From IMG/VR virus record IMGVR_UViG_3300009157_000016, positions 44,378-108,377 of that record: a stretch of DNA of 64,000 bases; one strand, given 5' to 3'. Under the pieces are notes generated by a model. It made no database searches. It was not told where the DNA came from and saw nothing but the letters and a program-made list of their open reading frames with translations. Shown piece after piece: positions 3,234 to 55,206 of this stretch. Both the position numbers and the translations under genes were made by a program. Position 1 is the first letter of the stretch; each line of letters opens with the position of its first letter. Origin of the DNA: a virus.

Positions 3234-3453
3234 GACGCACCTTTCCACGTTCTTTTAGTTTCACTTTCCTTCCCAACGACCAGTAGACGACCAAGACCCT
3301 CTTCGATTGTCGCCACTTGACTATGTGGCAGGGAGCGAGGACACGTCTCATCTGCCAGACTTGTTCGAGAAGCTCCTTCAACGTGCAGCCGGGCTCACGG
3401 CGGAACTTCCCTTTTATGGGAATGCGGAAGAGGGTCGGGTCGTCATCCTTCAT
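3085..3453 (-). CDS. hypothetical protein
   Basis: ATGA coupling to the upstream gene, but a long 3' overlap with DUF1643. Confidence 0.4.
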   Translation of the reverse strand: MKDDDPTLFRIPIKGKFRREPGCTLKELLEQVWQMRRVLAPCHIVKWRQSKRVLVVYWSLGRKVKLKERGKVRHDVLRSKARPRRKEAPKDAGRHGRRRLVRRPQSGIPTDTAPLVEQTKAV

Positions 3454-3968
3454 AGGCGCACGCGATCACGCAGCGGCCGGCACTTGAGAAAATCATCCCA
3501 AAAGATGACTTGCAGATTGAGTTGTGGGTAGATGGCTTCAATGCGGAAGATGCCCAGCAAATGGAAGCCCTTCTTGGTGCTGAGGACCAGTATGGGGAAA
3601 TTGTTCTGGCGGGCAATGAGGAACGGTATCTTGTCGAACTTCTCAGCATCCCGGCACAAGGCAAGCCAGAAGTTGACAAGGTTCCCCCTGCGCTTAATCA
3701 GCGCATCAATGTCCAAGTTCTTGAAATGCTTTGAGTCGACGAGGAAGTTGTCGACGAATTTCATGCCGGCTGGATCAATGGCGCTTATGTCACCGGCTTG
3801 CGCAGAGAGGATTGTGCCGGACTTGAAGGCAATGCTGGCCCGGCCTCCTGACATGGCGGTGCGCCAGAATATGTCCTCACGCTTGCCGCGCGTGACCCAT
3901 TTGGATAGCTCACGGCAACAGTAGCGTTCGAACGTAGCGCCCTTTTTCTGACTACCGCCCTTCCTCAT
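3450..3968 (-). CDS. PD-(D/E)XK nuclease, putative Holliday junction resolvase
   Basis: KKGATFER, GDI, LVDSKH pattern; recombination gene context. Confidence 0.7.
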   Translation of the reverse strand: MRKGGSQKKGATFERYCCRELSKWVTRGKREDIFWRTAMSGGRASIAFKSGTILSAQAGDISAIDPAGMKFVDNFLVDSKHFKNLDIDALIKRRGNLVNFWLALCRDAEKFDKIPFLIARQNNFPILVLSTKKGFHLLGIFRIEAIYPQLNLQVIFWDDFLKCRPLRDRVRL

Positions 3969-4302
3969 CTACCCGCTCCCCTTTATCGTTGATAGGCCAC
4001 TTCTCACCGCTGATAAGACGGATAGTGACCATTTCCTGATGACGGTTCATCATGTCGACTTCGTATTCCGCCTTGCCGTTGGCGACCTCAATGGTGAACC
4101 GCATTCCCCTTAGCTTCTCGGGGTCGCTGATGTCCAAGCCGAACTCACGAAGCATTGCGAACGTCGTCGTGGTGGAGTGCATCCACGGAGTGTCTATTGT
4201 GGTGTAGCGCTGGCCGTAGATGGGCTCCACATCTTTGCCGAATGCGGTATCAGGAACCTCGCCGGTGTGCAGCGAGAATTGCATCCTGCGTAGCTCAACC
4301 AT
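3952..4302 (-). CDS. hypothetical protein
   Basis: ORF with AGGAGG-like RBS coupled to the RecA end. Confidence 0.6.
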   Translation of the reverse strand: MVELRRMQFSLHTGEVPDTAFGKDVEPIYGQRYTTIDTPWMHSTTTTFAMLREFGLDISDPEKLRGMRFTIEVANGKAEYEVDMMNRHQEMVTIRLISGEKWPINDKGERVDEEGR

Positions 4303-5347
4303 ACTTCCTCCTCTTGGGTATGAACTCGTCCTCGATCTCATTCCAGAGACGACGGACGACCTTGTTGACGCGACGTGTCTCGCGGTCAAACTCCTTGTCG
4401 CTCATGTCGTTCAGCGCGTCGCGGTACTGAGTGAACTCCTTCTTCTCCGCCGGTATGTCAGCCGCCTTGAGACGCTTGATGGACTTGAGCCAGTCCAGCG
4501 AAGCCCCAAGGTCATCAATCCCGTAGCCAAAGATGAAGTCCATGTCGCACGACCTGAACGGGAAGCCGACCTTGTTCTTCTTGCATAGGGCTTTGATGCC
4601 GATCCCGTAGACGCGCTCAACGCCGCGAATGGTGCGCTTAAGCTGCTCCTTGTGGGACAGCCAGAGGATGTGCGTGGCGTAGAAGTCAAGCGCTTTGCCG
4701 CCAGCGCGGCGGTGCTTCTCCCCAAAGCTGACGTTGATGTTGTCCCGCACCTGTGAGACGATAACAAGGCAGACGCGGGCCTTGCCGATCTTCTTGGTCA
4801 GCTTGCGGAACAATTCAGACGCCATCTTGGCCTTTGCCATGCCGTAGGTGGCGTCACCAATCTCACGCTCCAGTTCCTTCTCGTCGCTGAGGCCGTCATA
4901 GCTGTCCAGCACGTACATGCCGGGCACGTCGTCTTTGATGCAGTCGTCGCAGAAGCGTTCCAAGTCCCGTGCAAACGCTTCAATGGTGGTGATGGGGGCG
5001 TCCGGATCGCCGAAGTCTATGTCGTCAACCGGCGCGCCCATAGCCTGCGCATAGTCCATGTCGTAGGCTTCTTCTGTCTCCCGGTAGGCTGCCTTTCCCT
5101 TCGGGTAGTCCATGCAGAAGTTTGTCAGCCCCTCAGTGGCAAGCGCCGTCTTGGCCGTGCTCTTGTCGCCCACGATGTTGATCATACGTCCTAGGACGTA
5201 GCCGCCGCTGAGAACGTTATCAAGCAGCCCGCAGCCGCTTGACGTGAATTCCAGCTTCTCCTTTTCGGAGGTGAAATAGAGGTTGTCCTCTTTTCTCAGC
5301 TTGTCATAAGCCGTTTCATCCTCAAGCTTTACGCGCCGCTTTGCCAT
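4295..5347 (-). CDS. RecA/UvsX-like recombinase
   Basis: SSGCGLLDNVLSGGY..GRMINIVGDKSTAKT, VLDS, VSQVRDNI, GGKALDFYA, KKNKV..PFR; start MAKRRVKL with GGAGG RBS. Confidence 0.93.
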   Translation of the reverse strand: MAKRRVKLEDETAYDKLRKEDNLYFTSEKEKLEFTSSGCGLLDNVLSGGYVLGRMINIVGDKSTAKTALATEGLTNFCMDYPKGKAAYRETEEAYDMDYAQAMGAPVDDIDFGDPDAPITTIEAFARDLERFCDDCIKDDVPGMYVLDSYDGLSDEKELEREIGDATYGMAKAKMASELFRKLTKKIGKARVCLVIVSQVRDNINVSFGEKHRRAGGKALDFYATHILWLSHKEQLKRTIRGVERVYGIGIKALCKKNKVGFPFRSCDMDFIFGYGIDDLGASLDWLKSIKRLKAADIPAEKKEFTQYRDALNDMSDKEFDRETRRVNKVVRRLWNEIEDEFIPKRRKYG

Positions 5348-5554: not shown

Positions 5555-6235
5555 TTAGTCCCGGTCGCGCCTCCGGCGGTCCCGGTCGTCGTCCGGGTCG
5601 TCATAGCGGGTGCGCTTCTTGTCACCGCGATCGTCGTCACGGTCGCGCTTGCGGTCACGGTCGTCGTCATCATCCCGACCGCCGCGCTTCTCGCCGACGT
5701 CACGTTTGCGGTCGTCGTCCTTGTCCCGGTCCTTGCTGCGCTCACGCATCTCAGCAAGACGGTCCTTCACGTTGCGGCGCTCACCCTTGTCGTCGTCATC
5801 GCGCTTCCGGTCCCGGTCCCGGTCATCGTCATCACGGTCGCGACTGCGGCTGCCACGGTCAACGTCATCCCGGTCACGGCTGCGGCGGTCGTCCTTGTCG
5901 TCGTCACGGTCACGCCCGCGCCGGTCATCACGGTCGTCATCCCGGTCACGGCTGGCACGACGATCATCCCGGTCATCATCACGGTCACGCCGGCCACGAC
6001 GATCGTCGTCGTCTTCGCTCCTCTTCCGTGACGACCCACGGTCATCATCACGATCGTCGTCCCGGCCACGGCCGCGCACCGAACCACGATCATCATCATC
6101 CCGGTCACGCCGGCCACGGCCTGAGCCGCGTTCGTCATCATCCCGGTCACGGCTGCGCCCGCCGCGCCGGTCGTCATCCCGGTCACGGTCACGGCTACGG
6201 CCACCACGACGATCGTCTTTGTCGTCGTCGTCCGT
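5555..6235 (-). repeat. coding low-complexity repeat (RDRDDD-type units)
   Basis: Many imperfect copies of (c)cggtcacgg/tcgtcgtc on the + strand. Confidence 0.9.
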
Positions 6236-7126
6236 TTCAACGCGGACGTGGCCGCCGAAGGCCGCTTCAATGTGGTCGTAGTCGTGGTATTGCAGGACAT
6301 CAGGGATGGGATTTTCCTTGATGTAGTCCAGCACGTCCTGCATGTCACGCTTGTTGTCCAAGATGGGACCGCTGGGGAGGATCTTCATCTTGGACGCCGG
6401 GTACTTGGTATTGCGGCCGGTGCCTTCACGGTAGAAGCGGATGTCGTTCCCGTCGTAAGGGTCATCAATGTAGATGAGCGCCTTGGTGTCCTCGTCAACC
6501 GTCAGGTTGGCGATGTCCTTGTCGAACGTCCACGCCATTGCCCAAAACTGAGCGCCTTCGTCAGGAGCGTTCTTGTCAAGGACCCACACGCCCTTCCGCT
6601 TCTTGGGCGTCAGGGCTTTGGCCAGCTTCTCGTCGCCGTCCTTTTCAGCATCACGGCGGGCCTCATCCAGCGGGTCCCTCTTGCCCAGCATCTTGCTGAG
6701 GCTGAGGTACGTCTGCGAGTCGACGCCAATGCCGTAGTTGCAGTAGATGTCGTAGCAGTAGTACTTCGCATCGTCCCACGTGGGCGGCAGGATGCGGATC
6801 GTGTTCTTGCCTTCCTTTGGCTTGAACACCTTGATCCCATCCTTTACGATGGAGTCGAAGTTCCCTCCGCTTTGGTTGGCGGCTTCCCGCACGGCTTCAC
6901 GCGACGTGCGCTTGTAGACAAAGCTACCACCACGACTGGAGCCGCGATCATCATCACGGTCACGATCACGCGAACGACCACGGTCACGATCCCGGTCATC
7001 GTCGTCCCTCCCACGGCTTGAGCGCCTGTCGTCATCATCCCGGCCACGGCGACGATCGTCGTCCCGGTCACGGTCGCGATCCCGGTCATCATCCCGGTCA
7101 CGGCGTCTATCGTCATCACGTGCCAT
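5555..7126 (-). CDS. gp32-like single-stranded DNA-binding protein with long Arg/Asp-rich N- and C-terminal tails
   Basis: Core FKPKEGKNTIRILPP..DPL..DDPYDGNDIRFYREGTGRNTKY typical of phage gp32-like SSBs; lies between RecA and UvsY-like genes. Confidence 0.8.
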   Translation of the reverse strand: MARDDDRRRDRDDDRDRDRDRDDDRRRGRDDDDRRSSRGRDDDDRDRDRGRSRDRDRDDDRGSSRGGSFVYKRTSREAVREAANQSGGNFDSIVKDGIKVFKPKEGKNTIRILPPTWDDAKYYCYDIYCNYGIGVDSQTYLSLSKMLGKRDPLDEARRDAEKDGDEKLAKALTPKKRKGVWVLDKNAPDEGAQFWAMAWTFDKDIANLTVDEDTKALIYIDDPYDGNDIRFYREGTGRNTKYPASKMKILPSGPILDNKRDMQDVLDYIKENPIPDVLQYHDYDHIEAAFGGHVRVETDDDDKDDRRGGRSRDRDRDDDRRGGRSRDRDDDERGSGRGRRDRDDDDRGSVRGRGRDDDRDDDRGSSRKRSEDDDDRRGRRDRDDDRDDRRASRDRDDDRDDRRGRDRDDDKDDRRSRDRDDVDRGSRSRDRDDDDRDRDRKRDDDDKGERRNVKDRLAEMRERSKDRDKDDDRKRDVGEKRGGRDDDDDRDRKRDRDDDRGDKKRTRYDDPDDDRDRRRRDRD

Positions 7127-7141
7127 ACACTTCTCTCCTCG

Positions 7142-7312
7142 TCAGGCGCTCTCGGCGCGGGTTTCTTTCTGCCCATGCTGGATAAGGCTCAGGAGTCCCT
7201 GAACGTATGCCAGCTTGGCGCGGTAGTATGCGATGAACACGAAGTTCAAGAAGCAATACAGCAGCGCCAGAACAAGGATCAGGACTGCTACGCCCAGTAC
7301 GTCCTCAGTCAT
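7142..7312 (-). CDS. small membrane protein (56 aa)
   Basis: Manual translation MTEDVLGVAVLILVLALLYCFLNFVFIAYY..; GAGG RBS. Confidence 0.55.
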   Translation of the reverse strand: MTEDVLGVAVLILVLALLYCFLNFVFIAYYRAKLAYVQGLLSLIQHGQKETRAESA

Positions 7313-7805
7313 CGTACCTCACCCTTCGTTTGGAACGGCCTTCAATGATCCGCTCCATGTTGCGCTTGGAACGATACTCGTCAGCCCGGCCGCCTTTGGT
7401 GGCGTCCGTCTGATAGTAGTTCGCTACGTACAGCCCTGCCAGATCCTTGAGCATGTAGGACCGCATTGAGAAGGACTCCTTCAACGTCTGGCACCTGTCC
7501 GCCCATTCCTTGGCGTCAAGGTAGCTCTTGGTGGCCTCAATGTGGTCGTCATGTATCTCAATGGCGTTCTTGATAGCCGCCTCACTGGCCTTGCCGTCCG
7601 ACCGTTCCAGTTCCCTCCTGCACTCAAAGTATAGGCGCGCGTCGATTTGGGACAGTTCCTCTTTGGCTGTGTCCCGGTCAGCGTTTGCCGCTGCCAATAG
7701 ATCGCCGGCTTCATAGAACAATTCTGGTTGCCTGACCAATTCCATGTCTAGGTCAAGGCGGTCAATTTGCAGCGCACGGCGCAGTTCGCTAGGTTTTGCG
7801 GGCAT
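7305..7805 (-). CDS. UvsY-like recombination mediator
   Basis: Helical 166 aa, LQIDRLDLDMELVRQP..SEAAIKNAI..ESFSMRSYML pattern; next to SSB and RecA. Confidence 0.6.
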   Translation of the reverse strand: MPAKPSELRRALQIDRLDLDMELVRQPELFYEAGDLLAAANADRDTAKEELSQIDARLYFECRRELERSDGKASEAAIKNAIEIHDDHIEATKSYLDAKEWADRCQTLKESFSMRSYMLKDLAGLYVANYYQTDATKGGRADEYRSKRNMERIIEGRSKRRVRYDD

Positions 7806-7837: not shown

Positions 7838-8815
7838 CTAGGCCCGGTGGAGTTCCAGAACCAAGCCAATGGAAACGTAGAGGGGAGCGTACTTGGCGGA
7901 ATTGTCATAGGGCGTTGAGAAGCATTCGATGATCCTCAGCAGGCTCGCAGCGCGGCGGTGATCAGTCGTCTTGGCCGCCACCTTCGCCATGTAGTGGCAC
8001 GTAACGATGCGAATGCTTTCAGCGTCCTGATTGGCTTCCTCCATGTCCTTGCAGATGCGCATGGCGTCCTTCCATGTGCCCTTGGGCTTCATGAGGAACT
8101 GGCAGAAGTCATTGATTTCCTTCGTCTCACCGGCCAGCCTTAGCGCCTCACGCGCGTCGGTCACCGTTTCGCAGTACTCAACCTTCTCAAGGTAGGTCAA
8201 AGCCTGCCGTGGTGAGCCGCCGCTGTTCTCAGCAATCAGCTCTAGTATCTCATCCTCCACCTTGAGGTCCGCCTTGTCCATGACCTCGGCAAGGATGAGC
8301 AGAATTTCATCCTCACTGAGCGGCTTGAGATGGTAGTCAATGCACCGCGTCTTGATGGTGGCAGGAACCTTGCCGGGCAGCGTGGTGCAGAAGAACCAGT
8401 ACACGTGCTTGGGCGGTTCCTCCGTGGCCTTGAGAATGCTGTCCCATGCGTTGCTGGACAGCTTGTGGCACTCATCCACGATGATTCCTTTGACCGGACT
8501 GTCGCCAATTGCCCGGTAGTTGGCCTTCTGGACAATGCTGCGCATGGCGTCCACACCGGTATGCGTGGCAGCGTCCACGTCGAGGATGTTCGCCAGCGTG
8601 ATAGTGGCATCGTCGCTCTTGGCCCCAAGCAGGGCAAACTCGTTCGCCACAATGCGGGCAAGCGTCGTCTTGCCAAGGCCGGAGCCGCCCGTGAACAGGA
8701 AGGTGTGGGCACGCCCCTCCTTCACGACCTTGCGCAAGGACTTCACGACGGCGTCGTGTCCAATGACGTCCTTGAATACGTTCGGCCGATAGGCGGTGTG
8801 TAGTGACGTGCTCAT
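7838..8815 (-). CDS. DnaX (gamma/tau)-like clamp loader AAA+ subunit
   Basis: YRPNVFKDVIGH, GGSGLGKTTLAR, DAATHTGVD, IVDECH, EEPP, TIKTRC, GGSPR. Confidence 0.9.
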   Translation of the reverse strand: MSTSLHTAYRPNVFKDVIGHDAVVKSLRKVVKEGRAHTFLFTGGSGLGKTTLARIVANEFALLGAKSDDATITLANILDVDAATHTGVDAMRSIVQKANYRAIGDSPVKGIIVDECHKLSSNAWDSILKATEEPPKHVYWFFCTTLPGKVPATIKTRCIDYHLKPLSEDEILLILAEVMDKADLKVEDEILELIAENSGGSPRQALTYLEKVEYCETVTDAREALRLAGETKEINDFCQFLMKPKGTWKDAMRICKDMEEANQDAESIRIVTCHYMAKVAAKTTDHRRAASLLRIIECFSTPYDNSAKYAPLYVSIGLVLELHRA

Positions 8816-9135
8816 CTTCGTTTATCCTTTCGCTTCCCCTGTTGGCTCATGTGAAATATACCGTTCGCACAGTCAGGGCGCTCCCCATTGCACGGCCTCC
8901 AGTAGATGTGTCCGCACAACGTACACTCAGTTGGCTTGTCACCGGGGAACGCTGGATACATCGTTCGGTGGTCACCGGCTTTGTACTCGGTCATGACCTC
9001 TATGGGTCCGTCGTCCAGCCTCACCCGCTGACGGTGCGGCGGCGGGGCGGGCTCAGGCAGTATCAGGTCATCTTCGTCAAGCCTGACCCGTTTGCGGGGC
9101 ACGACGGGCTCATCTAAACGCACTCGCTTTTTCAT
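8812..9135 (-). CDS. hypothetical protein with 3x RVRLD motif and a Cys4 C-terminal domain
   Basis: KKRVRLDE, RKRVRLDE, RQRVRLDD; CTLC..C..C; GGAGG RBS. Confidence 0.7.
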   Translation of the reverse strand: MKKRVRLDEPVVPRKRVRLDEDDLILPEPAPPPHRQRVRLDDGPIEVMTEYKAGDHRTMYPAFPGDKPTECTLCGHIYWRPCNGERPDCANGIFHMSQQGKRKDKRR

Positions 9136-9171: not shown

Positions 9172-11889
9172 TTAGATACCCTGAGAATCGAATGACTTGT
9201 AGTTCTCGCTCCAGTACTTGCCCACGGGCTCAAGCTTGTTCCACTTCTTGCCAATGGACACTTCCACGCTCATAGGCACGTTGATGAAATCATACGGGAG
9301 CAGAAGCAGTTCGCGTGCCAAGTAGCTGATCTCATCTGCCAGTATGCTGTCCTTGTCAGGCATCATGAACGTCAGGTCGTCATGGATTTGCATGATGGGA
9401 TGACGGTAGCGGATCTTATGCTTGAGAGAGCTGCGGCTGATCCTCACCATGCCGTCGTTCACAATGTCAGCCGCCAAGGACTGGATGGGGCTGTTGTACA
9501 GTTCGTGTCGGCTCATGGGATAGTAGCGGCGGCGGCCGGTGAACGTTTCCACGTAACCCACGTCGTAGTAGGTCCGCATGGTCTCGTCCTGCCACTCCTT
9601 GAGGCCGGAGAACGTTTCCCAAAACTCCTCAAAGATGTCCTGCGCCACGTTGTCAGGCATGGCCTCGCCAAGGAAGGGTAGGAAGTAGCTGGCAACCGAC
9701 GGCTCAGCCGCACCAAAGATAACAGGGAACACCATCTTGTTCTTGACCAGTGAGCGCGCACCCTTCAATGCGTCCTCGTCATTCTTCCCCTGCTTCTCCT
9801 TAAAGTAGTCGAACAGCCACGGCCAGCGCTTGCCAATTTTGAGCGCCCATTCCTTGTGAACGTCGTATTCCTTCCACGTAGCACCGACCATGTTCTTGTC
9901 ATTGCAGAACATGCAGGCGGTACACCACTCCAACTGCCCAAAGTCCACGCTAACGAAGACGTGGCCTTCCAGCGCTTCAACTTGCTCCCTGATCCAAGCG
10001 TCCTTGTGCTTGGGCCAGTTCTGCATGTTGGGGTCGTCCGAACTGAGTCGGGCGGTGGTGGTGAAGGTCGTGTTGAAGGAAGTGTGGAGCTTGCCGTCGG
10101 GAAAGATGAGCGTGCCGTCAGGCAGGATCATCTGGTCGACGTACGTGCTCTTCATCTTCACTTTGTTGCGCAGCTTGATAATCAGCGGCGCAAGCGGATG
10201 GTCTATCTTCTCAAGGACGGCTTTGTCAACCTTCTCAGTGACTTTATCTGAGTCCTTTTTGTCCTTGACGAAGACCTCAGGCCGCTTTAGGTAGTCACGG
10301 AATATGGTAAGGACCTGCGGCTGCGACTCAGGATTGAATTCCCCTTTATGCTCACTGACATACTTCTTGACCACTTTGAGGCCAAGGATGTCATTTACGA
10401 TACCCTTGACTTCGTCTTCCAGCTTGCCTTGCAGGCGCTTGGCGGTCTTCTGGTTGATGGGGACGCCGTAGTGCTGCATGAGAGCCACCGCGCCCTGACG
10501 CGGCATGGCCATCTCATAGACATGCTCCTGCCTGATGTCCCTGATAAGCTTGTCCTGATGGAACCAGAGTTGCAGCGTGGCGCGCGTGTCAGCGCCATTG
10601 TAGATGAGGACCTGATCGTAGGGGCTTTTGCGCAGGTCCTTCTTGTCCAGCTTGAACTGGCTCTTGATGTCTATGCCGAAGTGCTGGCGTGTGAGGAAGC
10701 CTAGCTTTTGGTATTGCGAAGCGTGATCGTCCTGACCCTTCTCGTTTGGCCCTTTGCGGCCGTCAAGGATGTAGGCTTGGACCATTGTGTCTTCCCACGA
10801 GTTGTGGTGAACAATGTCTTCGCCAAAGTAGAAGATGTACCACTCCATCTCAAATGGAGAGTTGTGCGCAATCTTGGGGATGTCACGGCGGCGTATCAAC
10901 GCCTCAAGCCGGTCAAGGATCTTCTGCCGCTGCGCTTTGGACCAGTTGGCCTTGGGATGGTCGACTCCGAACGAAAACGTTCTTAGTTTTAGGTGCCTGT
11001 CATAGTAGGAAAAGGCGGCCGTCAGAATGATAGCGCCGGTGCGGTAGGGTCTGAGAGGCCACGTCTCAAGGTCGGTGGCGTAGCAGGCAACTCCTCTCTC
11101 AATGTCGTCGAACTCCCGCATCAGGGAGTCAAAGTCATCCTCGGGGCGCTCACCGCTGTAGGTGTTGACGTCCTTCTTGACAGTCTGCTGAGTCCATACT
11201 TCCGGCCACGGCGGATCGTCGTCCATGAACCGCCATATCTGCTCAAAGTCCAGCTTCCACGCGCCACCTACTCGGCCGTTCAGCGGGCGTCTGTCATCCT
11301 TGGCCGACCGCAGGACGTAGGCAGGGTGATTGGTGGGGAAGAACCAGCACTCATGCTTTCCAATGGTGACCGCAAAGAAGCGGCCCCGCATACCTTGCAT
11401 GTCTTTCGTGCCAAGCATCCACTGCAAGGCTGGGATGCCAAGGCCCACGATCAGCTTGGGGGCAGCTTCCTCAATGGCGGCGGTGACGTAGCCGCGACAG
11501 CACTCCTGCTCAATCCACTCCGGCGGCCGTATCTTACCCTCAGCGTTTTTGGGGAAGTGCCTGACTGTGTTCCCGTAACCGCAGTTGTCATAGTATTCGT
11601 TGGGGATCATGGACTTGAGAAGCTTGCCTGACTTCCCAATGAACGGTACGCCCTCCTGTTCCTCCTGCGGACCCGGTGCCTCACCTAGGAAGAAAATGTC
11701 GCATCTGCGTGGTACGTCTTCACGGACCTCATTGCCGGCACGTGAGAGGGGGCAAGCGCGACAGCCTAGGCGTTGCAGCGTTTCCGAGCTTTGCTTCGTT
11801 TGCTGGCCTACCGAAGACCGGCGGGGGCCGGTTTTGTCGGCGCCCTTTTTCGCGTTCGCCTTATCTGCTTTCTGGTAGAAGAAGCCCAT
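9172..11889 (-). CDS. family A DNA polymerase with N-terminal family-4 UDG-like domain and 3'-5' exonuclease
   Basis: CRACPL..GEAPG..EG.PFIGKSG..HPAYVLR; DLET, AHN, YNGAD; TARLSSDDPNMQN, DFGQLE, TFTGRRR, NSPIQS, IHDDL. Confidence 0.93.
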   Translation of the reverse strand: MGFFYQKADKANAKKGADKTGPRRSSVGQQTKQSSETLQRLGCRACPLSRAGNEVREDVPRRCDIFFLGEAPGPQEEQEGVPFIGKSGKLLKSMIPNEYYDNCGYGNTVRHFPKNAEGKIRPPEWIEQECCRGYVTAAIEEAAPKLIVGLGIPALQWMLGTKDMQGMRGRFFAVTIGKHECWFFPTNHPAYVLRSAKDDRRPLNGRVGGAWKLDFEQIWRFMDDDPPWPEVWTQQTVKKDVNTYSGERPEDDFDSLMREFDDIERGVACYATDLETWPLRPYRTGAIILTAAFSYYDRHLKLRTFSFGVDHPKANWSKAQRQKILDRLEALIRRRDIPKIAHNSPFEMEWYIFYFGEDIVHHNSWEDTMVQAYILDGRKGPNEKGQDDHASQYQKLGFLTRQHFGIDIKSQFKLDKKDLRKSPYDQVLIYNGADTRATLQLWFHQDKLIRDIRQEHVYEMAMPRQGAVALMQHYGVPINQKTAKRLQGKLEDEVKGIVNDILGLKVVKKYVSEHKGEFNPESQPQVLTIFRDYLKRPEVFVKDKKDSDKVTEKVDKAVLEKIDHPLAPLIIKLRNKVKMKSTYVDQMILPDGTLIFPDGKLHTSFNTTFTTTARLSSDDPNMQNWPKHKDAWIREQVEALEGHVFVSVDFGQLEWCTACMFCNDKNMVGATWKEYDVHKEWALKIGKRWPWLFDYFKEKQGKNDEDALKGARSLVKNKMVFPVIFGAAEPSVASYFLPFLGEAMPDNVAQDIFEEFWETFSGLKEWQDETMRTYYDVGYVETFTGRRRYYPMSRHELYNSPIQSLAADIVNDGMVRISRSSLKHKIRYRHPIMQIHDDLTFMMPDKDSILADEISYLARELLLLPYDFINVPMSVEVSIGKKWNKLEPVGKYWSENYKSFDSQGI

Positions 11890-12044
11890 CACTTTTCCGC
11901 TTTGAGTTGGTCGAGTCGCTTGCGGCATGTGGCAAGCAAGTCACGGTTCGCGAAGTCACCGTGACGCTTGAGTTCTGCCTCCTGCACCGCCAGCATGACG
12001 TCGACGATTTCGATCAGGGCGTTAACCTTCTGCACATCCGGCAT
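11889..12044 (-). CDS. small hypothetical protein
   Basis: MPDVQKV.. fills the clamp-polymerase gap; TGATG coupling. Confidence 0.55.
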   Translation of the reverse strand: MPDVQKVNALIEIVDVMLAVQEAELKRHGDFANRDLLATCRKRLDQLKAEK

Positions 12045-12045
12045 G

Positions 12046-13101
12046 TCAGTCTCCGAAGTTGGACAAGATTTGGAAGAGGTCCGCCCCCTTCCGGTAGACC
12101 GTGAAGCCTTCCAGCACGGCCATCTCTGAGCATACGTCAATGCTGCGCGCCATCAAAGCCGCGTTGACCTTGATCTCGACGTCTGGATGATCCCCTTGAA
12201 GGTTGACCAGATCGCGCACCTCGCCCATGTCGGTGTTCGTGTATAGGCGCATCCGGCCTTCCTTGATGCTGATCTCAGTGGGCTGCGATTTGGGCTCAGC
12301 CACGACACGCGCCCGGCTCAGAGCGTGCTCAAGTCCTTTGGGGACCTTCATCCACGGGATCTCATCCCGCGTGGTCTTTTCGACCCACATGGCGTGGTCC
12401 ACCGGGTCTTCTGGTTTGATGACGCGGCCGTAGACCTTGTAGTCCTTCTCAAGCTCGGCCAACACCCATTCGTCAGAAGCGTGCAGCCGGCCGTTCATGG
12501 ACTTGTCGCTCTTGCAAATGCGCAGGACCGACTCGCAGAAGGAGTTGGGCATGACGAAGCTGTGCGGGTCGTTGTAGTTGGCTCCGTCGATCAGGTAGTG
12601 CGTGAGGCTGTCTGAGTCGCAGGAGTAGAAGCTGATCCCGTCACCGGTATCCAACGTGATGCCCATGAGCGCCTGTTGGCTGCTGTCCTTGCTGGTCGTG
12701 GTGAGGCAAATTTCCATCGCCTCAATCAGGCTGTCATCCAGGTCCAGCACCACGTCCCACGACTCGTCAGACGGTTCTTTGAACAGGAACTCTGACTCTG
12801 GCAAGTAGGGCAGGCGCATCTTGGACCGGCCGGCAATGAACACGACTTCGTGTTGCTGGTCGTCGAACTCAATCTCCACTTCCTCGGTGCGGCAGTTGCG
12901 CAGCAAGCCGAGCATGGTGTCGCCGTGGCAGGCGAAGGGCGCTACGCCGGACGTGCATTTGGCCACGATGCCTAGGTGGTCGTCCGTCGCGTACAGGGTG
13001 TCCCCTGTGAACACGAAGTTCTGGTAGACGGGAACCAAGTCCTGATCGGCCAAGGCGGGCTTGATCAGTTCCAACATCGTGACCAGTGCTTTGCGTCTCA
13101 T
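12046..13101 (-). CDS. DnaN-like (beta) sliding clamp
   Basis: About 350 aa; LYATDD, ALMGITL, YSCDSDSL, ALSRARV, IKVNA pattern of three-domain beta clamps; adjacent to the polymerase and loader. Confidence 0.75.
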   Translation of the reverse strand: MRRKALVTMLELIKPALADQDLVPVYQNFVFTGDTLYATDDHLGIVAKCTSGVAPFACHGDTMLGLLRNCRTEEVEIEFDDQQHEVVFIAGRSKMRLPYLPESEFLFKEPSDESWDVVLDLDDSLIEAMEICLTTTSKDSSQQALMGITLDTGDGISFYSCDSDSLTHYLIDGANYNDPHSFVMPNSFCESVLRICKSDKSMNGRLHASDEWVLAELEKDYKVYGRVIKPEDPVDHAMWVEKTTRDEIPWMKVPKGLEHALSRARVVAEPKSQPTEISIKEGRMRLYTNTDMGEVRDLVNLQGDHPDVEIKVNAALMARSIDVCSEMAVLEGFTVYRKGADLFQILSNFGD

Positions 13102-13541
13102 AGCCTCACCCTTCTTGCTAGTTTCCAACGGCGCTTGGCCGATTGCTGCATCTTTGCGATAGATTCGGATGTGTGCCGCGTACCATACCTTATGTGACCT
13201 ATACCTTTCTGCGTGACGCCGGAGTGACCCTTCTGAGATTTATGTTTGGCGTGACAAGAAGGATAGAGTTGATTCTGACTGTTGGTTCCATCAAGTAAGT
13301 GCGCGGCGTTGCAGCACGGATGAAATTCGCAGTCATGGAGAACCATTCTTGGCCATGCTGGCACGTAACCGTTCTCTAAGAAGAACGCCACGCGATGGGC
13401 AGTGTACTGTATGCTGTGACGAACTGAGAATACTCCATGCCCACTGGTTTGCGTTCCGCCTAACCAAGGCCAGCATTCGTCGGGGCCGCGTCGGTCAACT
13501 TTGGACCAGAAGCGCGCTATGTCTTTAGCGCTGAGGATCAT
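13098..13541 (-). CDS. HNH homing endonuclease
   Basis: RFWSKVD..CWPW.G..AHRVAF..VLHDC..CCNAAHL..GT..QN; NUMOD3-like HTSESIAKM. Confidence 0.88.
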   Translation of the reverse strand: MILSAKDIARFWSKVDRRGPDECWPWLGGTQTSGHGVFSVRHSIQYTAHRVAFFLENGYVPAWPRMVLHDCEFHPCCNAAHLLDGTNSQNQLYPSCHAKHKSQKGHSGVTQKGIGHIRYGTRHTSESIAKMQQSAKRRWKLARRVRL

Positions 13542-15071: not shown

Positions 15072-15647
15072 TCAGCCTCCTTTCAGGCTATCCTCACGCC
15101 GCATCATCTGGTCGTAGATGCGGGTGTCCATGTTCATCCAGCGGTCACCGCCACCCCGATCAAGATGATTGGATAGGACGGCAGTGTCGTTGGAACCAAA
15201 CAAGGCTTCAAGGCTGCCTGCGAACACCACATACGCCGGCTCACCACGTTCCTTGTCGTAGCATGGTAGCAGCTTGTAGCGGTTCCGGACAACCAGTGTT
15301 CCGGAACGGTTTAGCATGAACGGGCTGACGATGCATCCGAGGGGGCGTTCGGGCAACCGCCAGAGGCCGCATAGGTGCCCCGCTGTCTTGGCCGGACAAA
15401 GGCGACAACCGGGCTCTGGCTGTATGAAGCCGCCACGAGCTTTGATGCCTATGCGGTGCAGCCTGCGGGCCTCAGACGGGCTCACGTGAACGCGGATGCC
15501 AGTGGGGCTCGTAGGGGCGTCGCAGCATTTGGCCGTGCAGCCCTTCTTGGCGATGCACTCTGGGCCGCATTGGATGAAACGCAACCGACAAGAAGGGGCG
15601 GACACCCTTACAGGAGTCCGCCCCGGTTGCGCGAAGAGTCCGCGCAA
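15072..15647 (-). CDS. CxxCxxCC/YkgJ-like Cys-cluster protein
   Basis: C..C....C...CC, CRLC..CGL..RPLGC..SPF. Confidence 0.6.
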   Translation of the reverse strand: MRGLFAQPGRTPVRVSAPSCRLRFIQCGPECIAKKGCTAKCCDAPTSPTGIRVHVSPSEARRLHRIGIKARGGFIQPEPGCRLCPAKTAGHLCGLWRLPERPLGCIVSPFMLNRSGTLVVRNRYKLLPCYDKERGEPAYVVFAGSLEALFGSNDTAVLSNHLDRGGGDRWMNMDTRIYDQMMRREDSLKGG

Positions 15648-15648
15648 C

Positions 15649-15879
15649 TCAGTCCCGTTCGCGGTCGCGGTCGTTGTCGTTGTCGCCGGCGTCCTCGTCC
15701 TCGGTGATGGCGTCTTCGTCCCACCAGTTCTCGCAGGGCGTGCCGGTGCCGTCGGCGTAGCGGATCAGGTACTTGTTGTCGGCGCTGAGATACTCGGCGC
15801 GGCCAATGACGACGCCTTTGATCTCGATGTTGTCCTCGAAGATCACTTTGGCTTCGAGGTCGTACTTGAACTTCGCCAT
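15649..15879 (-). CDS. small hypothetical protein
   Basis: MAKFKYDL..GRAEY..YLIRY..WWDE; AGGAG RBS. Confidence 0.7.
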   Translation of the reverse strand: MAKFKYDLEAKVIFEDNIEIKGVVIGRAEYLSADNKYLIRYADGTGTPCENWWDEDAITEDEDAGDNDNDRDRERD

Positions 15880-15917
15880 TTCAACTCCTGTTGGTTGTGG
15901 CTGCATGATGACTATAC

Positions 15918-15947
15918 GCAAACGGCCAGCCTTCGCAGGCTGGCCGT
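15918..15947 (-). terminator. probable intrinsic terminator
   Basis: 11-bp stem acggccagcct/aggctggccgt followed by a short T run after the 15967 gene. Confidence 0.55.
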
Positions 15948-15966
15948 CAGTTTCCTGGAAGGTCGA

Positions 15967-16908
15967 TCAGTCGTCGCGGCGGCGGCGGCTGCCCTTCCGG
16001 TCGTCATCGTCATCCTTGCGGCTGGACCGCTTGGAGTCCTTGGCATCGTCGTCGTCACGGCTGCGGCGCTTGGACGAGGAAGCCTCCTTGTCGTCGTCGC
16101 GGCTGCGGCGCTTGCCCTTGTCGTCATCGTCGTCACGGGAGCGGCGCTTGCTGCTGCCCTTGTCGTCGTCATCACGGGACCGCTTCCGGTCGCCGTCGTC
16201 GGAGTCACGCTCCTTGTTCGAAGCGGTGGTCATTTTCCGCTTCTGCGCCGAGGACAGGTCATCCTTGTGCGTGACCTTGATCAGACCGTCGTAGCGCTCG
16301 ACAAGGTGCCCATCCTTGGTCAGCTTCTTGAGCACGTTGTTCTGCGGGCCGCCGGTCTTGTCCTTGATGGTCTTCATGGACGCGCCGCCCTCGAAGAGCT
16401 TCACGGCGTCGGAGACCTTGGTGCCGACGACGAGCCCGTAGCGGTCGCGCTTCGCACCCTCGTAGTCACGGGGCGACTTCTTTTTGGAGCCCTTGTCGTC
16501 GTCCTTGTCACGGCCGCGGATGGATTTGCGGTCGTCCTTGTCGTCGTCCTTGGAGGAACGACGGCCGCGCCGGTCATCCTTGTCCTCGTCCTTGTCCTTC
16601 GACTTGGCCGACTTGCGGTCATCGTCGTCGTCCTTGGACGAACGCTTGCCGCCCTTGCGGTCGTCGTCCTTGCCGCCCTTCTCCTCCTCGAAGTCCTCGA
16701 TATCCTGGTCGGTCTTCAAGGCGTCCAGCGCGTTGTTCGCCCAGTCGGTCGCCGGGTCTGAGACCGCGTTGAACTCGTCGTCGGGAAGCTTGTTGACTTC
16801 CTTGGCGAGCGCGGCAAGGTAGTCCTGCCGGGTCTTGTAGTCGTCCTCGTCCTTCTTGAAGCCGGTCGCCTTGATCAGCTCCTTCTCGATTGCATGGAGT
16901 TTGGCCAT
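15967..16908 (-). CDS. Lys/Arg/Asp-rich disordered protein with a central wHTH-like domain
   Basis: SKDDDDDRK/RSRDDDD repeats flank DRYGLVVGTK..GGASMKTIK..QNNVLKKL. Confidence 0.75.
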   Translation of the reverse strand: MAKLHAIEKELIKATGFKKDEDDYKTRQDYLAALAKEVNKLPDDEFNAVSDPATDWANNALDALKTDQDIEDFEEEKGGKDDDRKGGKRSSKDDDDDRKSAKSKDKDEDKDDRRGRRSSKDDDKDDRKSIRGRDKDDDKGSKKKSPRDYEGAKRDRYGLVVGTKVSDAVKLFEGGASMKTIKDKTGGPQNNVLKKLTKDGHLVERYDGLIKVTHKDDLSSAQKRKMTTASNKERDSDDGDRKRSRDDDDKGSSKRRSRDDDDDKGKRRSRDDDKEASSSKRRSRDDDDAKDSKRSSRKDDDDDRKGSRRRRDD

Positions 16909-16925: not shown

Positions 16926-17498
16926 TCAAGCTGTTAACCACTCACGAAACGCGGCCACCAAGTCAGCGTCGCTATCCAGACCAAGAATGCGCTTGATCCT
17001 TGTGTTGAAGCTGGGGCGTGGAAGCCCACGGTGTCTCCTACTTGGTTTCCTAAGCTCTTGCAAGTGGCGGTCACTGGCGAACACGCTGAGAAGCAAAAGC
17101 ACTTCCGGAGGCGCGTTCGCCAAGACAATAGACACTGACCCTTCGTCGGCAAGATTGCAAGCTAATTCGCTCACATCTTCTACGCCGTCAACGAAGGCGG
17201 ACTTGCGTTCAATGTTCTTGTTTGCTAGGTCAATCAGCTCGTTCAGGAGAGCCGTCTTGTAGAGCGCCATGAAATGGGGCGCGTGCATGACGCGCGGATA
17301 CTTGACTGTGCAGCGCTCGAATACAATGTAGGCGTCTTGCAGGAGGTCGTCCATGCCACATAGGACTGGATCATAGCGCCATAGGTTTTCACGTAAGAAC
17401 TTGATCGTGTAGGCTTTTATCACCCCGTCCCATTCAGGATACCATTCAAGACGGACACGACTGGACAACTTTTCAAGCCGCACACGGCGCTTCGGCAT
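16926..17498 (-). CDS. sigma-70 region-2-like phage transcription factor
   Basis: MDDLLQDAYIVF..KY..FMALYKTALLNELIDL; start MPKRRVRL with GGAGAGG RBS. Confidence 0.6.
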   Translation of the reverse strand: MPKRRVRLEKLSSRVRLEWYPEWDGVIKAYTIKFLRENLWRYDPVLCGMDDLLQDAYIVFERCTVKYPRVMHAPHFMALYKTALLNELIDLANKNIERKSAFVDGVEDVSELACNLADEGSVSIVLANAPPEVLLLLSVFASDRHLQELRKPSRRHRGLPRPSFNTRIKRILGLDSDADLVAAFREWLTA

Positions 17499-17633
17499 GG
17501 CCCTCTCCCCGACATAGAGCAGCGCCCCATTGCCCGGCTGCACTTCGATGTGGGTAATGGGAGCTCTAGCTGCGAAAAGTGAGCCAAGCACTTTCACGTT
17601 TCAGAGGCAAATGGAATCTTGTCATCCACACAG

Positions 17634-24763: not shown

Positions 24764-25090
24764 TTACAGTCTAACGCGCTTCTTGCCACCGCCTTTGTCG
24801 AGGCTCTCCCTCAACTTCCTCATCGGATCACGTTCGCGCGCTTTTTCTGAGCGACTCATACCTTCGAATTCCCTCAGTTTAACTTTCCCTTTCCTGTAGG
24901 CGTCAAGTAAAGCCTCCTCGAGATCCTCACCTTGACCGTGAAAGTAGTCCCAAACGGAATGAGTGTGAACGAGAACGACGTCAAAGTACCAGTGTCTCCT
25001 TCCCTCCTTTCCGATGGGGTGGCGCTGATAGCATTGATGCAACATGAAGCCGGCATCGTTGGCCCGCTCAAGGACGTCTTCTACTGACAT
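24764..25090 (-). CDS. hypothetical protein ending in KKRVRL
   Basis: 108-aa ORF with GAGGAG RBS. Confidence 0.7.
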   Translation of the reverse strand: MSVEDVLERANDAGFMLHQCYQRHPIGKEGRRHWYFDVVLVHTHSVWDYFHGQGEDLEEALLDAYRKGKVKLREFEGMSRSEKARERDPMRKLRESLDKGGGKKRVRL

Positions 25091-45262: not shown

Positions 45263-45365
45263 GTCTACTCTCCTGTCGAATTTACCTGTCCAATACAGGG
45301 TTTGAGTTTCGTTTCCGACCGTGTATATCTGTCCCTCCGATGTGCTTTTCTTATCGGGTGTCCAC

Positions 45366-46052
45366 ATGCAGGGTAAAAATAAACGACGGGTTCGGCTAGA
45401 CGACGAGCCGCGACCGAAGCGCGTGCGGGACATGGAGCCCGCCAACCGCGCCCGTGACCGGGCTTATCGAGATGCACCGCGCGACACGGAAGGTCGCATG
45501 ATTCCCGGCTTTAGATACAAGCAACTCGTCGATGCATACGAGTCCGCCGGGCTGGAGCCGCATGTTCAGCGGGTAGACGACGTCAGCTTGACGAAGCGCC
45601 CCATGTTCATCTCAAACCCTGAGAAGGGTAAGAGGCTGATCAAGCTGCTCCGCAAGGGGTTGCCTTACACCACGTGCTGTCGGTTGATCGGGATCAGTCG
45701 CTCCACATTCATTGAGTGGATGGTGAAGGGCCGTGAAGGGCATCCCCATTACGTTGACTTCTACGAGAAGATCTGCAAGGCGGAAGGCCAAGCAGAACTC
45801 AGCAGGCTCAAGGAGCTGCGGCAGGATGGTAAGGGCGACTGGAAGTCGTCTGCTTGGCAGCTCGAGCGCCGTTGGCCTGAGCATTGGGGACGCCGCGACG
45901 CAGTGCGTGCGGAAGTTGTCGCCAACGTAGAAATCAGCGTAAAGGGGAAAGAAAAGCTGGCGCAGCAGGTCGCCACCGACGAAGTGTCGCGCGAGCTTGC
46001 GCGCCGCATGATTGACGGAACGGAATACGGCTACGAGGACCTCAGCAAATGA
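45366..46052 (+). CDS. terminase small subunit
   Basis: HTH LRKGLPYTTCCRLIGISRSTFIEW and DWKSSAWQLERRWPEHW; directly upstream of TerL. Confidence 0.75.
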   Translation: MQGKNKRRVRLDDEPRPKRVRDMEPANRARDRAYRDAPRDTEGRMIPGFRYKQLVDAYESAGLEPHVQRVDDVSLTKRPMFISNPEKGKRLIKLLRKGLPYTTCCRLIGISRSTFIEWMVKGREGHPHYVDFYEKICKAEGQAELSRLKELRQDGKGDWKSSAWQLERRWPEHWGRRDAVRAEVVANVEISVKGKEKLAQQVATDEVSRELARRMIDGTEYGYEDLSK

Positions 46053-47665: not shown

Positions 47666-47934
47666 CGGATCAACAGCAACCACCGCAGACGATTGTACAG
47701 GCGGGAGGCAGGGTAGCTGAGGGGTTGGTCTCCTCGTTTACCGGAGCCCCAACGCTGCTTCTCATCGTGATCCTGAATATCACGATGATCATCATGGGTG
47801 GTTTCTTTTTGCTCAAGCAGGACGAGTTGCAAGCCAAGAACGTAGCCGAAGTTATTTCACTGGTCCGTGCGTGCATTTTGGAGACTGTTCCAACCACGCA
47901 TCTCAACAGGGAGTTAGACAACAATGGCCCGTAG
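47662..47934 (+). CDS. small membrane protein (possible holin)
   Basis: One strong TM helix PTLLLIVILNITMIIMGGFFLL; coupled to TerL and portal. Confidence 0.55.
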   Translation: MTDQQQPPQTIVQAGGRVAEGLVSSFTGAPTLLLIVILNITMIIMGGFFLLKQDELQAKNVAEVISLVRACILETVPTTHLNRELDNNGP

Positions 47935-49708: not shown

Positions 49709-50050
49709 CTACAGCCTGACGCGCTCACGTCGCGGCCTGTCGGCCTTGTCTGGCGGCGTGCGGTCAGCCTCAAAAGCCTGCCCCGCCTGCCGCTTACGAA
49801 GCATTGCTGTGATCTGCCGTTCCTGGTCGGCGAGGGCCTGCTTCATCAAGTAGAACTTCGCCGCCTCCAGCGCAGACCGAGCGAGGCCGTTAAGACCCCG
49901 CACATACTCGCCGTACATGTCGGGACCTACATCCTCCACGTAGTTGCCTTCCTGGAAGCGCGTAAGGTCATGCAGCTCGGCCATGAGGTCCTCGCACTTG
50001 ACAAGGAGCTCCTTCTGAGACTGTAGCGGAACGATTGACAGCCTCGGCAT
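49709..50050 (-). CDS. hypothetical protein ending in RERVRL
   Basis: TGATG-coupled ORF. Confidence 0.65.
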   Translation of the reverse strand: MPRLSIVPLQSQKELLVKCEDLMAELHDLTRFQEGNYVEDVGPDMYGEYVRGLNGLARSALEAAKFYLMKQALADQERQITAMLRKRQAGQAFEADRTPPDKADRPRRERVRL

Positions 50051-54951: not shown

Positions 54952-55206
54952 TCAGAATGAACCATCAGCCCACGCTTGTCTACCCGCTTTCAAGGCATCC
55001 GCGTGTTCGCCGTATGGCCCTACCTCGGAACCGTATGGCACTCCCGGTCCCCGCATCACTGACCAGTAGAATCCGTTCTTGGGATCGCCGTCGTCATCCA
55101 GCGCAAACTTGCCGTTTGCGTCAGGCCCCCACTCTGTGACTTCTAGGTAGGGTTCGCCGTCAAAGGCGAACCCGCCGCTTGTTTCGTCTGACTTCTTTTT
55201 GGTCAT
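54952..55206 (-). CDS. hypothetical protein
   Basis: GFYW..GPY..AL pattern; GAGG RBS. Confidence 0.6.
   Translation of the reverse strand: MTKKKSDETSGGFAFDGEPYLEVTEWGPDANGKFALDDDGDPKNGFYWSVMRGPGVPYGSEVGPYGEHADALKAGRQAWADGSF

What the first reader, a model, noticed from the sequence alone, without database searches (positions are those of the whole stretch)
5555..7126. gp32-like SSB with about 290 residues of Arg/Asp mixed-charge tails
Seen: residues ~1-65 and ~298-523 consist almost only of R, D, G, S and K (RDRDDDRRGGRSRDRDDD...) around a normal-looking SSB core. Established: gp32-type SSBs usually end in a short acidic tail, while alternating R/D mixed-charge domains are known from eukaryotic nuclear-speckle proteins such as U1-70K, where they drive self-association and condensation. 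Inference: this SSB may scaffold a phase-separated replication compartment without a shell. Its tail ends with KKRTRYDD, a variant of the RVRL tag.
Basis: partly seen in the sequence, partly recalled or inferred. Interest (0 to 1): 0.82.

Follow-up and report, generated by a model that had tools for sequence, protein, structure and literature searches.

The report
Phage SSB with giant Arg/Asp tails
This gene of an uncultured tailed phage encodes a T4 gp32-type single-stranded-DNA-binding protein whose folded core sits between two long, disordered Arg/Asp tails; such charged tails are common in this phage SSB family but I found no paper describing them, and they may help cluster replication proteins, which is untested.

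Summary
ORF 5555-7126 (-) encodes 523 aa. Residues 1-65 are 83% R+D and residues 298-523 are 72% R+D, around a 232-aa core.

The core is a gp32-type SSB. It passes the Pfam gp32 cut-off, and its AlphaFold model (pLDDT 90) has only RB69/T4 gp32 among its significant Foldseek matches.

The tails look real. There is a strong SD and no alternative start. A family-conserved helix lies in frame after 155 tail residues. The DNA repeats are only 60-88% identical.

Charged disordered tails are a family trait (median C-tail 112 aa in 164 relatives). This protein is the extreme: longest, best-mixed charges (kappa 0.09 against a median of 0.39) and nearly neutral. Both tails meet the published criteria for Arg-rich mixed-charge domains. 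Distant relatives also carry R/D tails at both ends, and this scan has noted similar SSB tails on other DNA.

KKRTRYDD lies 13 residues before the C-terminus, not at it. It is still a credible copy of a terminal K/R-R-V-R-L-D/E tag found about 20 times in this phage and in two clade relatives, and absent from four outgroup genomes.

The condensate-scaffold idea is plausible but untested. I rate it a new variant of a known kind.

The parts
5555..7126 (-). Complete SSB gene, 523 aa plus stop (P0001)
   Evidence: a single copy in the 108-kb virus record
7135..7140 (-). Shine-Dalgarno GAGGAG, 8 nt upstream of the ATG
6932..7126 (-). N-terminal Arg/Asp mixed-charge tail, residues 1-65, predicted disordered
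   Evidence: composition and kappa 0.05; pLDDT mostly below 50 (block means 44-50) and no secondary structure; shorter R/D inserts at the same place in relatives
6236..6931 (-). gp32-type OB-fold ssDNA-binding core, residues 66-297. It includes the family-conserved basic N-terminal segment F-x-Y-x-R...helix (residues about 69-84), a possible counterpart of the gp32 cooperativity (B) segment.
   Evidence: Pfam PF08804 30.6 bits against a cut-off of 26.8, phrog_34306 E 1.7e-55, phrog_1192 SSB; AF2 pLDDT 90.2; the six Foldseek matches with E<=0.001 are all RB69/T4 gp32, E 2.5e-8 to 9e-6
5558..6235 (-). C-terminal Arg/Asp mixed-charge tail, residues 298-523, predicted disordered
5732..5770 (-). 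Family-conserved short helix (VKDRLAEMRERSK, residues 453-465), counterpart of the S-I/L-R-D/E-R-L-x-x-R-R motif that precedes the acidic tip in relatives
   Evidence: the only helix predicted in the tails; motif seen in most homologues; nearly invariant Arg at position 456
5597..5620 (-). Tag-like motif KKRTRYDD (residues 503-510), followed by P
   Evidence: counterparts RTRARLEDDP and RARPRLDEP in the G002 SSB tail and KSRYDDD in the G001 SSB tail
4295..5347 (-). Neighbouring RecA/UvsX-like recombinase with the tag at its N-terminus (MAKRRVKLED)
7305..7805 (-). Neighbouring 166-aa protein ending in KRRVRYDD*, the tag copy most like that of the SSB; possibly UvsY-like
   Evidence: conserved in all 7 genomes compared; a UvsY lead only (a cluster at score 0.94 in which 17% of members carry PF11056)
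15967..16908 (-). Second protein of this phage with long mixed-charge tracts (P0123, repeat unit K-K/R-R-S-R-D-D-D-D)
   Evidence: homologues in G001 and G003-G006

Best explanation
The gene encodes the replication and recombination SSB of a roughly 108-kb tailed phage. The SSB is of the T4 gp32 type. Its OB-fold core binds ssDNA. Both ends carry intrinsically disordered, well-mixed, nearly neutral Arg/Asp polyampholyte domains, which are the extreme form of a charged tail found throughout this SSB family.

Proposed mechanism (inferred, not shown): the tails act as multivalent electrostatic and guanidinium 'stickers'. Through them, SSB and SSB-coated ssDNA would self-associate and hold the phage's DNA-transaction proteins at high local concentration, forming a membraneless replication/recombination focus. 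Two short specific elements in the C-tail would serve as docking sites: the conserved helix at 453-465 and the tag-like KKRTRYDDP at 503-511. The same basic-V-basic-L-acidic tag sits on the UvsX-like recombinase, the possibly UvsY-like neighbour, both terminase subunits, RusA, an HNH nuclease and other proteins. The SSB is therefore at least a member of that tagged set, and may also be its scaffold.

Shown here: identity, fold, disorder, composition, family context and tag statistics. Inferred: self-association, condensation and client recruitment.
For: Identity. Pfam gp32 is above its cut-off and two PHROG SSB families match. The AF2 core model has pLDDT 90. The six Foldseek matches with E<=0.001 are all RB69/T4 gp32. 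The order PolA - clamp loader - small protein - SSB - RecA is the same as in Mardecavirus phages, whose homologue is annotated as T4 Gp32-like.

Tails are real and disordered.

Selection acts on charge, not on DNA sequence. Synonymous codons are mixed. Relatives with a different G+C content keep mixed-charge tails built from other residues, K/D in G001 and R/G/E/D in G002.

Both tails meet the Greig et al. criteria for mixed-charge domains, with R/(R+K) of 0.88. The C-tail holds 74 R and 89 D. That is above the roughly 40 RD repeats at which pure RD peptides condense at 5 uM without a crowding agent.

T4 gp32 and UvsX form condensates in vitro with PEG. E. coli SSB phase-separates (abstract of 10.1101/797431).

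The tag occurs 12 times against 1.2 expected, with varied codons. It is present in the orthologous TerS, TerL and RecA termini of G001. A second mixed-charge protein has repeats with the same charge grammar.
Against: No experiment exists for any member of this family.

Well-mixed polyampholytes (low kappa) are expected to drive less electrostatic phase separation than blocky ones. [quoted passage not shown] These tails are at -0.035.

The relatives G003-G006 have 126-165-aa charged tails and no tags, so the tails do not need the tags.

Long tails and tags co-occur in one clade only. That is a single evolutionary event and not evidence of co-evolution.

The receptor for the tag is unknown and could be another protein, for example the phage sliding clamp.
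Confidence: 0.42

Rival explanations
1. The tails are an enlarged version of the usual SSB regulatory tail, with no condensate involved. In this reading they act as an electrostatic gate and spacer that tunes ssDNA affinity and cooperativity, like the acidic C-domain and basic N-segment of T4 gp32 or the disordered linker of E. coli SSB. They also present the conserved helix to partner proteins. The extreme length arose by repeat slippage and is largely neutral.
For: Charged tails of very variable length (64-229 aa) and composition occur across the family, while the core and the end helix are conserved. Degenerate 36-39-nt periodicity points to past slippage. The N-tail sits directly before the conserved basic N-terminal segment.
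Against: Charge balance is held within a narrow range across the family (net charge per residue -0.17 to -0.05). R/D tails at both ends recur in distant sub-lineages. Both observations argue for selection on the tail itself. This reading also does not explain the tag-like motif.
Confidence: 0.33
2. The SSB is only a client of a separate tag-recognition system. In that case the K/R-R-V-R-L-D/E tags on about a dozen DNA-transaction proteins, including the KKRTRYDD of the SSB, dock onto another hub such as the phage sliding clamp or a clade-specific protein or compartment. The R/D tails would be unrelated to that system.
For: The tags sit at protein termini, as clamp-binding and SSB-binding motifs do. 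The phage encodes its own clamp and clamp loader. The tags are confined to the G000/G001/G002 clade, which also differs from the outgroups in many other genes, including the whole structural module.
Against: The tag does not resemble the known bacterial clamp-binding consensus (QL[SD]LF, from my own knowledge). The tag has the same basic-then-acidic grammar as the repeat units of the two mixed-charge proteins. No receptor could be singled out.
Confidence: 0.18
3. The tails are an artefact. The low-complexity region would be mis-assembled, or it would not be translated in this frame.
For: The record is a metagenome assembly. Other frames of the repeat region are also open.
Against: The family-conserved helix lies in frame 155 residues into the C-tail. 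There are no long exact DNA repeats; copies are 60-88% identical. Independent contigs encode tails of 170-229 aa, including a complete genome with terminal repeats. A strong SD is present and there is no alternative start.
Confidence: 0.02

Closest known systems
T4 / RB69 gp32 (Pfam PF08804; PDB 1gpc, 2a1k, 8gme)
   Same: Same fold of the ssDNA-binding core (Foldseek probability 1.0, TM 0.54-0.63, about 215 aligned columns). Same genomic company: a UvsX-like recombinase and a clamp loader, plus a sliding clamp elsewhere in the replication module. Same three-part layout: N-terminal segment, core, disordered C-terminal region.
   Different: Only 14-17% sequence identity. The whole protein has two cysteines, so a Cys3-His zinc site is impossible, and no Cys is conserved in the family. 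In place of a short acidic C-domain of about 50 residues there is a 226-aa near-neutral R/D tail, and a 65-aa R/D tail is added at the N-terminus.
Mardecavirus SSB (Vibrio phages MAR10, SSP002, PVA3; phrog_34306)
   Same: Closest named relatives: 40-42% identity over the core and the same gene order. The PVA3 protein also has a disordered R/D/G/S-rich C-tail of 144 aa.
   Different: Those proteins are much shorter (379 aa), have no long N-tail, and carry tails that are less pure in R/D. None of them has been characterised, as far as the held literature shows.
Arg-enriched mixed-charge domains of eukaryotes (U1-70K type; synthetic RD repeats; fungal SPA-5; Greig et al., bioRxiv 10.1101/771592)
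   Same: Same composition rules: fraction charged at least 0.7, charge ratio near 1:1, Arg preferred over Lys, and length above the condensation threshold.
   Different: The host is a bacteriophage, the domain is fused to an OB-fold SSB, and the net charge is slightly negative, whereas natural eukaryotic examples tend to be net positive. This is convergence in composition, not homology. Condensation has not been tested.
E. coli SSB disordered linker plus acidic tip
   Same: A disordered linker followed by a short conserved terminal element that recruits partners. E. coli SSB phase-separates (10.1101/797431). Some family members even end in PPF or APF tips like the bacterial DDDIPF.
   Different: Different fold class and oligomeric state. 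The E. coli linker is G/Q/P-rich (my own knowledge) and not charged, and this protein has no IPF-type tip.

Membership tests
gp32 family of phage SSBs (PF08804) | Sequence match to the family profile above the curated cut-off | tested here: met
   30.6 bits against 26.8, residues 104-251; also phrog_1192 SSB, E 4.4e-8
gp32 family of phage SSBs (PF08804) | gp32-type OB-fold core structure | tested here: met
   AF2 pLDDT 90.2; the six Foldseek PDB matches with E<=0.001 are all gp32 chains, E 2.5e-8 to 8.9e-6, and the next hit has E 0.14
gp32 family of phage SSBs (PF08804) | Zinc site (His plus three Cys in T4 gp32; known from the literature) | tested here: not met
   Only 2 Cys in the whole protein. 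No Cys among the invariant or nearly invariant columns of 65 relatives. This is a zinc-less branch.
gp32 family of phage SSBs (PF08804) | Cooperative ssDNA binding through a basic N-terminal segment | not testable with these tools
   A conserved basic segment F-x-Y-x-R-S followed by a helix exists at residues 69-84, but cooperativity needs biochemistry
gp32 family of phage SSBs (PF08804) | Short acidic C-terminal protein-interaction domain | tested here: not met
Arg-enriched mixed-charge domain (operational definition of Greig et al.) | A 60-aa window with at least 0.7 charged residues and a positive/negative ratio of 1:1 +/- 0.3 | tested here: met
   Windows cover residues 1-78 and 292-523, 310 residues in all, the most among 164 relatives
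Arg-enriched mixed-charge domain (operational definition of Greig et al.) | Arg rather than Lys as the basic residue | tested here: met
   R/(R+K) is 0.88 in the covered regions
Arg-enriched mixed-charge domain (operational definition of Greig et al.) | Length-dependent condensation | not testable with these tools
   The length exceeds the RD40 threshold reported, but there is no assay here
Terminal K/R-R-V-R-L-D/E tag set of this phage clade | Match to the tag pattern in a context where chance does not explain it | tested here: met
   KKRTRY at residues 503-508; p about 0.0014 by composition shuffle; shares the following acidic residues plus Pro with the TerS, p107 and G002 copies
Terminal K/R-R-V-R-L-D/E tag set of this phage clade | Position at or next to a protein terminus | tested here: inconclusive
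   The KKRTRY match ends 15 residues from the C-terminus (13 after KKRTRYDD), inside a disordered tail. The two G002 SSB copies start 146 and 91 residues from the end.

The most novel reading that the evidence does not exclude
The Arg/Asp-tailed SSB and the terminal K/R-R-V-R-L-D/E tags are two halves of one system. The SSB, with the second mixed-charge protein P0123, would build a shell-less condensate around replicating phage DNA. This would be a bacterial-virus analogue of eukaryotic speckle-type condensates, with a sequence-encoded address label.
Probability: 0.2. Interest if true: 0.88.

Novelty: new variant of a known kind. Interest (0 to 1): 0.6.

Why it matters
Apart from the protein-shelled nucleus of jumbo phages, little is known about how phages organise replication and recombination in space. 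This SSB family is large: 1,762 clusters at 50% identity. Its tails obey the same composition rules that drive condensation of eukaryotic Arg-rich mixed-charge domains, and this gene is the cleanest natural example.

In this clade the gene sits beside a recurrent terminal peptide tag on the proteins that must meet on phage DNA. The pair gives a directly testable model for membraneless phage factories and for a short portable targeting peptide in bacteria.

Even if no condensate forms, the family shows that the textbook picture of phage SSBs ending in a short acidic tail does not cover a large part of phage diversity.

Tried and rejected
- Sequence searches of the core and of the family profile against PDB chains gave nothing relevant. 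The gp32 link needed Pfam and a fold search.
- Megablast of the 8 kb around the gene against named phages found no match.
- A scan of prokaryote genomes found only four MAG contigs that look like phage contigs, so it gave no host. The window holds no tRNA genes.
- I looked for the tag receptor among genes shared by the tag-bearing genomes and absent from four tag-less relatives. This failed because the whole structural module differs between the two groups.
- A link between tail length and tags turned out to be a single clade, so I do not claim co-evolution.
- A eukaryotic-virus reading, prompted by the NLS-like tag and the speckle-like domain, was rejected. The genome has terminase, portal and tail-fibre genes, and the SSB gene a bacterial-type SD.
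- A DNA-level cause for the tag was rejected because its codons vary.
- Literature searches for polyampholyte or mixed-charge tails on phage SSBs found no paper describing them.

Full report
**The observation**

The minus-strand ORF 5555-7126 encodes 523 residues.
- Residues 1-65 are 43% Asp and 40% Arg.
- Residues 298-523 are 39% Asp, 33% Arg, 8% Gly, 6% Lys and 5% Ser.
- Both stretches have about 0.8 charged residues and almost no net charge (-2 and -8).
- Residues 66-297 have ordinary composition.

The start is well defined. The ATG at 7126 lies 8 nt after GAGGAG, an in-frame stop lies five codons upstream, and there is no other in-frame start before codon 79.

**Is it an artefact?**

Very unlikely, for four reasons.
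- The DNA repeats are degenerate. Tandem Repeats Finder finds 36-39-nt periods at 74-76% match, and the direct-repeat families are 60-88% identical. There is nothing for an assembler to collapse or expand.
- Synonymous codons for Arg and Asp are mixed.
- A motif conserved across the family (VKDRLAEMRER, residues 453-463; in relatives S-I/L-R-D/E-R-L-x-x-R-R) lies in frame after 155 residues of tail.
- Independent contigs encode tails of 170-229 residues. One is a complete 102.6-kb genome with terminal repeats.

**What the core is**

Pfam gp32 (PF08804) matches above its curated cut-off, at 30.6 against 26.8 bits. PHROG 34306 matches at E 1.7e-55 and the SSB family phrog_1192 at 4.4e-8. Sequence searches against PDB chains gave nothing.

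An AlphaFold2 model of residues 60-300, built with 64 homologues, has pLDDT 90.2. The six Foldseek matches in the PDB with E<=0.001 are all RB69 or T4 gp32 (E 2.5e-8 to 8.9e-6, TM 0.51-0.63), and the next hit is at E 0.14.

The protein has only two cysteines and the family conserves none. The T4 zinc site is therefore absent.

**Genomic setting**

The window is part of a 108,377-bp IMG/VR virus record rated complete. It encodes terminase, portal and tail-fibre proteins and a full replication set:
- PolA fused to a UDG domain;
- clamp loader and clamp;
- primase, a DnaB-type helicase and a further DNA helicase (phrog_62);
- a RecA/UvsX-like recombinase, RusA and an SbcD-like nuclease.

The closest named relatives of the SSB are those of Mardecavirus Vibrio phages, at 40-42% identity over the core. 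They share the gene order PolA - clamp loader - small protein - SSB - RecA, and one is annotated as T4 Gp32-like. The host is unknown.

**The tails in family context**

A search of the clustered protein collection gave 280 homologues. IMG/VR gave 80 related loci. An exhaustive search of 50%-identity representatives gave 1,762 clusters at E<=1e-3 and 614 at E<=1e-30.

Long charged tails are the rule in this family.
- In 164 non-identical close relatives the median C-tail is 112 residues.
- The median fraction of charged residues is 0.56 and the median net charge per residue is -0.10.
- The pattern is usually blocky, with acidic runs alternating with P-K/R3-4 (median kappa 0.39).
- The tail ends in the conserved helix and an acidic tip. 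In some members the tip is PPF or APF, like the bacterial SSB tip.

P0001 is the extreme of this set.
- It is the longest protein and has the second-longest C-tail.
- It has the third-highest fraction of charged residues (0.81).
- It is the second closest to neutral (-0.035) and has the highest Asp share of acidic residues (0.94).
- It has by far the lowest kappa, 0.087.

I applied the operational definition of mixed-charge domains from Greig et al.: a 60-aa window, at least 0.7 charged residues, and a charge ratio of 1:1 +/- 0.3. Residues 1-78 and 292-523 qualify, 310 residues in all, which is the most in the family. Arg makes up 88% of the basic residues there.

34 of the 164 close relatives and 26 of 150 representative clusters have at least one such window. 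Several distant members (P0221 at 525 aa, P0269 at 505 aa, P0256 at 462 aa, P0234 at 483 aa) also carry R/D tails on both ends. The architecture is therefore recurrent and not unique.

Notes from this scan report comparable charged tails on phage SSBs on other DNA, including gp2.5-type and Enc34-type folds. I did not re-test those notes.

A full-length AlphaFold2 model gives mostly pLDDT below 50 and no secondary structure for both tails. The one exception is a helix at 453-465, the conserved motif.

**The tag**

The pattern [KR][KR]R[VTI][RK][YLFIM] occurs 12 times in the six-frame translation of the genome, against 1.2 expected from shuffles. All 12 are in real ORFs and their codons vary, so selection acts on the peptide.

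With a slightly wider pattern there are about 20 sites, most of them near protein termini. They include:
- the RecA N-terminus (MAKRRVKLED);
- the N-terminal regions of TerS and TerL;
- the C-termini of RusA and of an HNH nuclease;
- the 166-aa neighbour, which ends KRRVRYDD*;
- a 107-aa protein with three copies.

The density per 100 kb is 18.5 in this genome, 11.7 in G001 and 6.2 in the incomplete G002. It is 0-1.1 in four complete relatives, G003-G006. In G001 the orthologous TerS, TerL and RecA termini carry the tag.

On an SSB-core tree G000, G001 and G002 form one clade, with support 99/98. The co-occurrence of tags with the three longest SSBs is therefore a single event and not independent evidence of coupling.

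The KKRTRYDDP of the SSB is improbable from tail composition alone (p about 0.0014). It contains the tail's only Tyr. It shares the acidic-then-Pro continuation seen in the TerS and p107 copies. It has counterparts in the SSB tails of G002 (RSRTRARLEDDP, RSRARPRLDEP) and, more weakly, of G001 (KSRYDDD). I take it to be a genuine tag copy, but an internal one.

**A second mixed-charge protein**

P0123 (15967-16908, minus strand) has two tracts built of K-K/R-R-S-R-D-D-D-D units, the same charge grammar as the tag. It has homologues in all compared genomes. In G001 the tracts are poly-Asp/Glu blocks and Lys/Ala/Pro blocks instead.

**Mechanism**

What is shown: a gp32-type SSB with two long disordered Arg/Asp polyampholyte domains, a conserved end helix and a tag copy.

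What is inferred: the tails mediate multivalent self-association and recruitment. The support is by analogy.
- Pure RD repeats condense above about 40 repeats at 5 uM without a crowding agent. Arg is required, and net negative charge suppresses condensation.
- T4 gp32 and UvsX form condensates in vitro with PEG and recruit client proteins.
- E. coli SSB phase-separates.

Points against the inference:
- The tails are slightly negative.
- Well-mixed charges weaken purely electrostatic phase separation.
- Tag-less relatives keep long tails.
- The tag receptor is unidentified. A presence/absence comparison failed because the whole structural module differs between the tag-bearing and tag-less genomes.

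The main rival is a regulatory gate or spacer role without condensation. The second rival is that the SSB is merely a client of another hub.

**Novelty and score**

I found no paper in the held library that describes mixed-charge or polyampholyte tails on phage SSBs. The protein is a new variant of a known kind: a gp32-family SSB with tails that are a hypertrophied form of a widespread but undescribed family trait. Interest is moderate to high. It offers a clean, testable model for membraneless phage replication foci and a candidate targeting peptide, but every functional claim is still inference.

Noticed in passing
whole record; in the window e.g. 5330-5347, 7305-7328, 9027-9135, 13098-13115, 3450-3467, 17459-17503, 24764-24784, 45381-45404, 46082-46153, 49709-49726, 54447-54500, 55160-55180: A short peptide tag (basic-basic-R-V/I-R/K-L, then D/E or the stop codon) sits at or near the termini of about a dozen proteins. 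There are 12 strict matches against 1.2 expected, and the codons vary. The tag is conserved on orthologous termini in G001, present in a variant form in G002, and absent from four complete relatives. Its receptor is unknown.
   Followed up: partly
window 15967-16908 (-): P0123 is a 313-aa protein with two folded-looking segments. Each is followed by a K/R/S/D mixed-charge tract built of K-K/R-R-S-R-D-D-D-D units. It has no Pfam family. Homologues occur in all six related genomes; the G001 homologue has poly-D/E blocks and histone-H1-like K/A/P blocks instead. The longer opposite-strand ORF 15496-16761 (+) is probably spurious.
   Followed up: partly
window 8812-9135 (-): A 107-aa ORF lies between the clamp loader and PolA. 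It has three tag copies in its first 45 residues (MKKRVRLDEP, PRKRVRLDED, HRQRVRLDDG). It matches no family and has only a weak match in G001.
   Followed up: no
window 7305-7805 (-): A 166-aa helical protein lies between the clamp loader and the SSB and is conserved in all seven genomes. The ESM Atlas gives a UvsY lead only (a cluster at score 0.94 in which 17% of members carry PF11056). If this is right, the locus encodes a UvsX / UvsY / gp32-like trio in which all three members carry the tag.
   Followed up: partly
window 9172-11928 (-): The family A DNA polymerase carries an N-terminal uracil-DNA-glycosylase-superfamily domain (PF03167, residues 73-212) ahead of the 3'-5' exonuclease and polymerase domains.
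   Followed up: no
G000 genome 16-39.6 kb and window 45321-49558, compared with G003-G006: The genome is mosaic. The replication and recombination module is shared by all seven related genomes. The structural module, TerS and portal are shared only with G001 and, in part, G002; TerL has weak matches in G003-G006.
   Followed up: partly
homologues P0006, P0008, P0009, P0017, P0034 (C-termini): Some members of this gp32-like family end in PPFDEDE, VPFDEDD or DEDAPF, which resembles the bacterial SSB tip DDDIPF. This suggests they borrow host SSB-interacting proteins. P0001 has no such tip.
   Followed up: no
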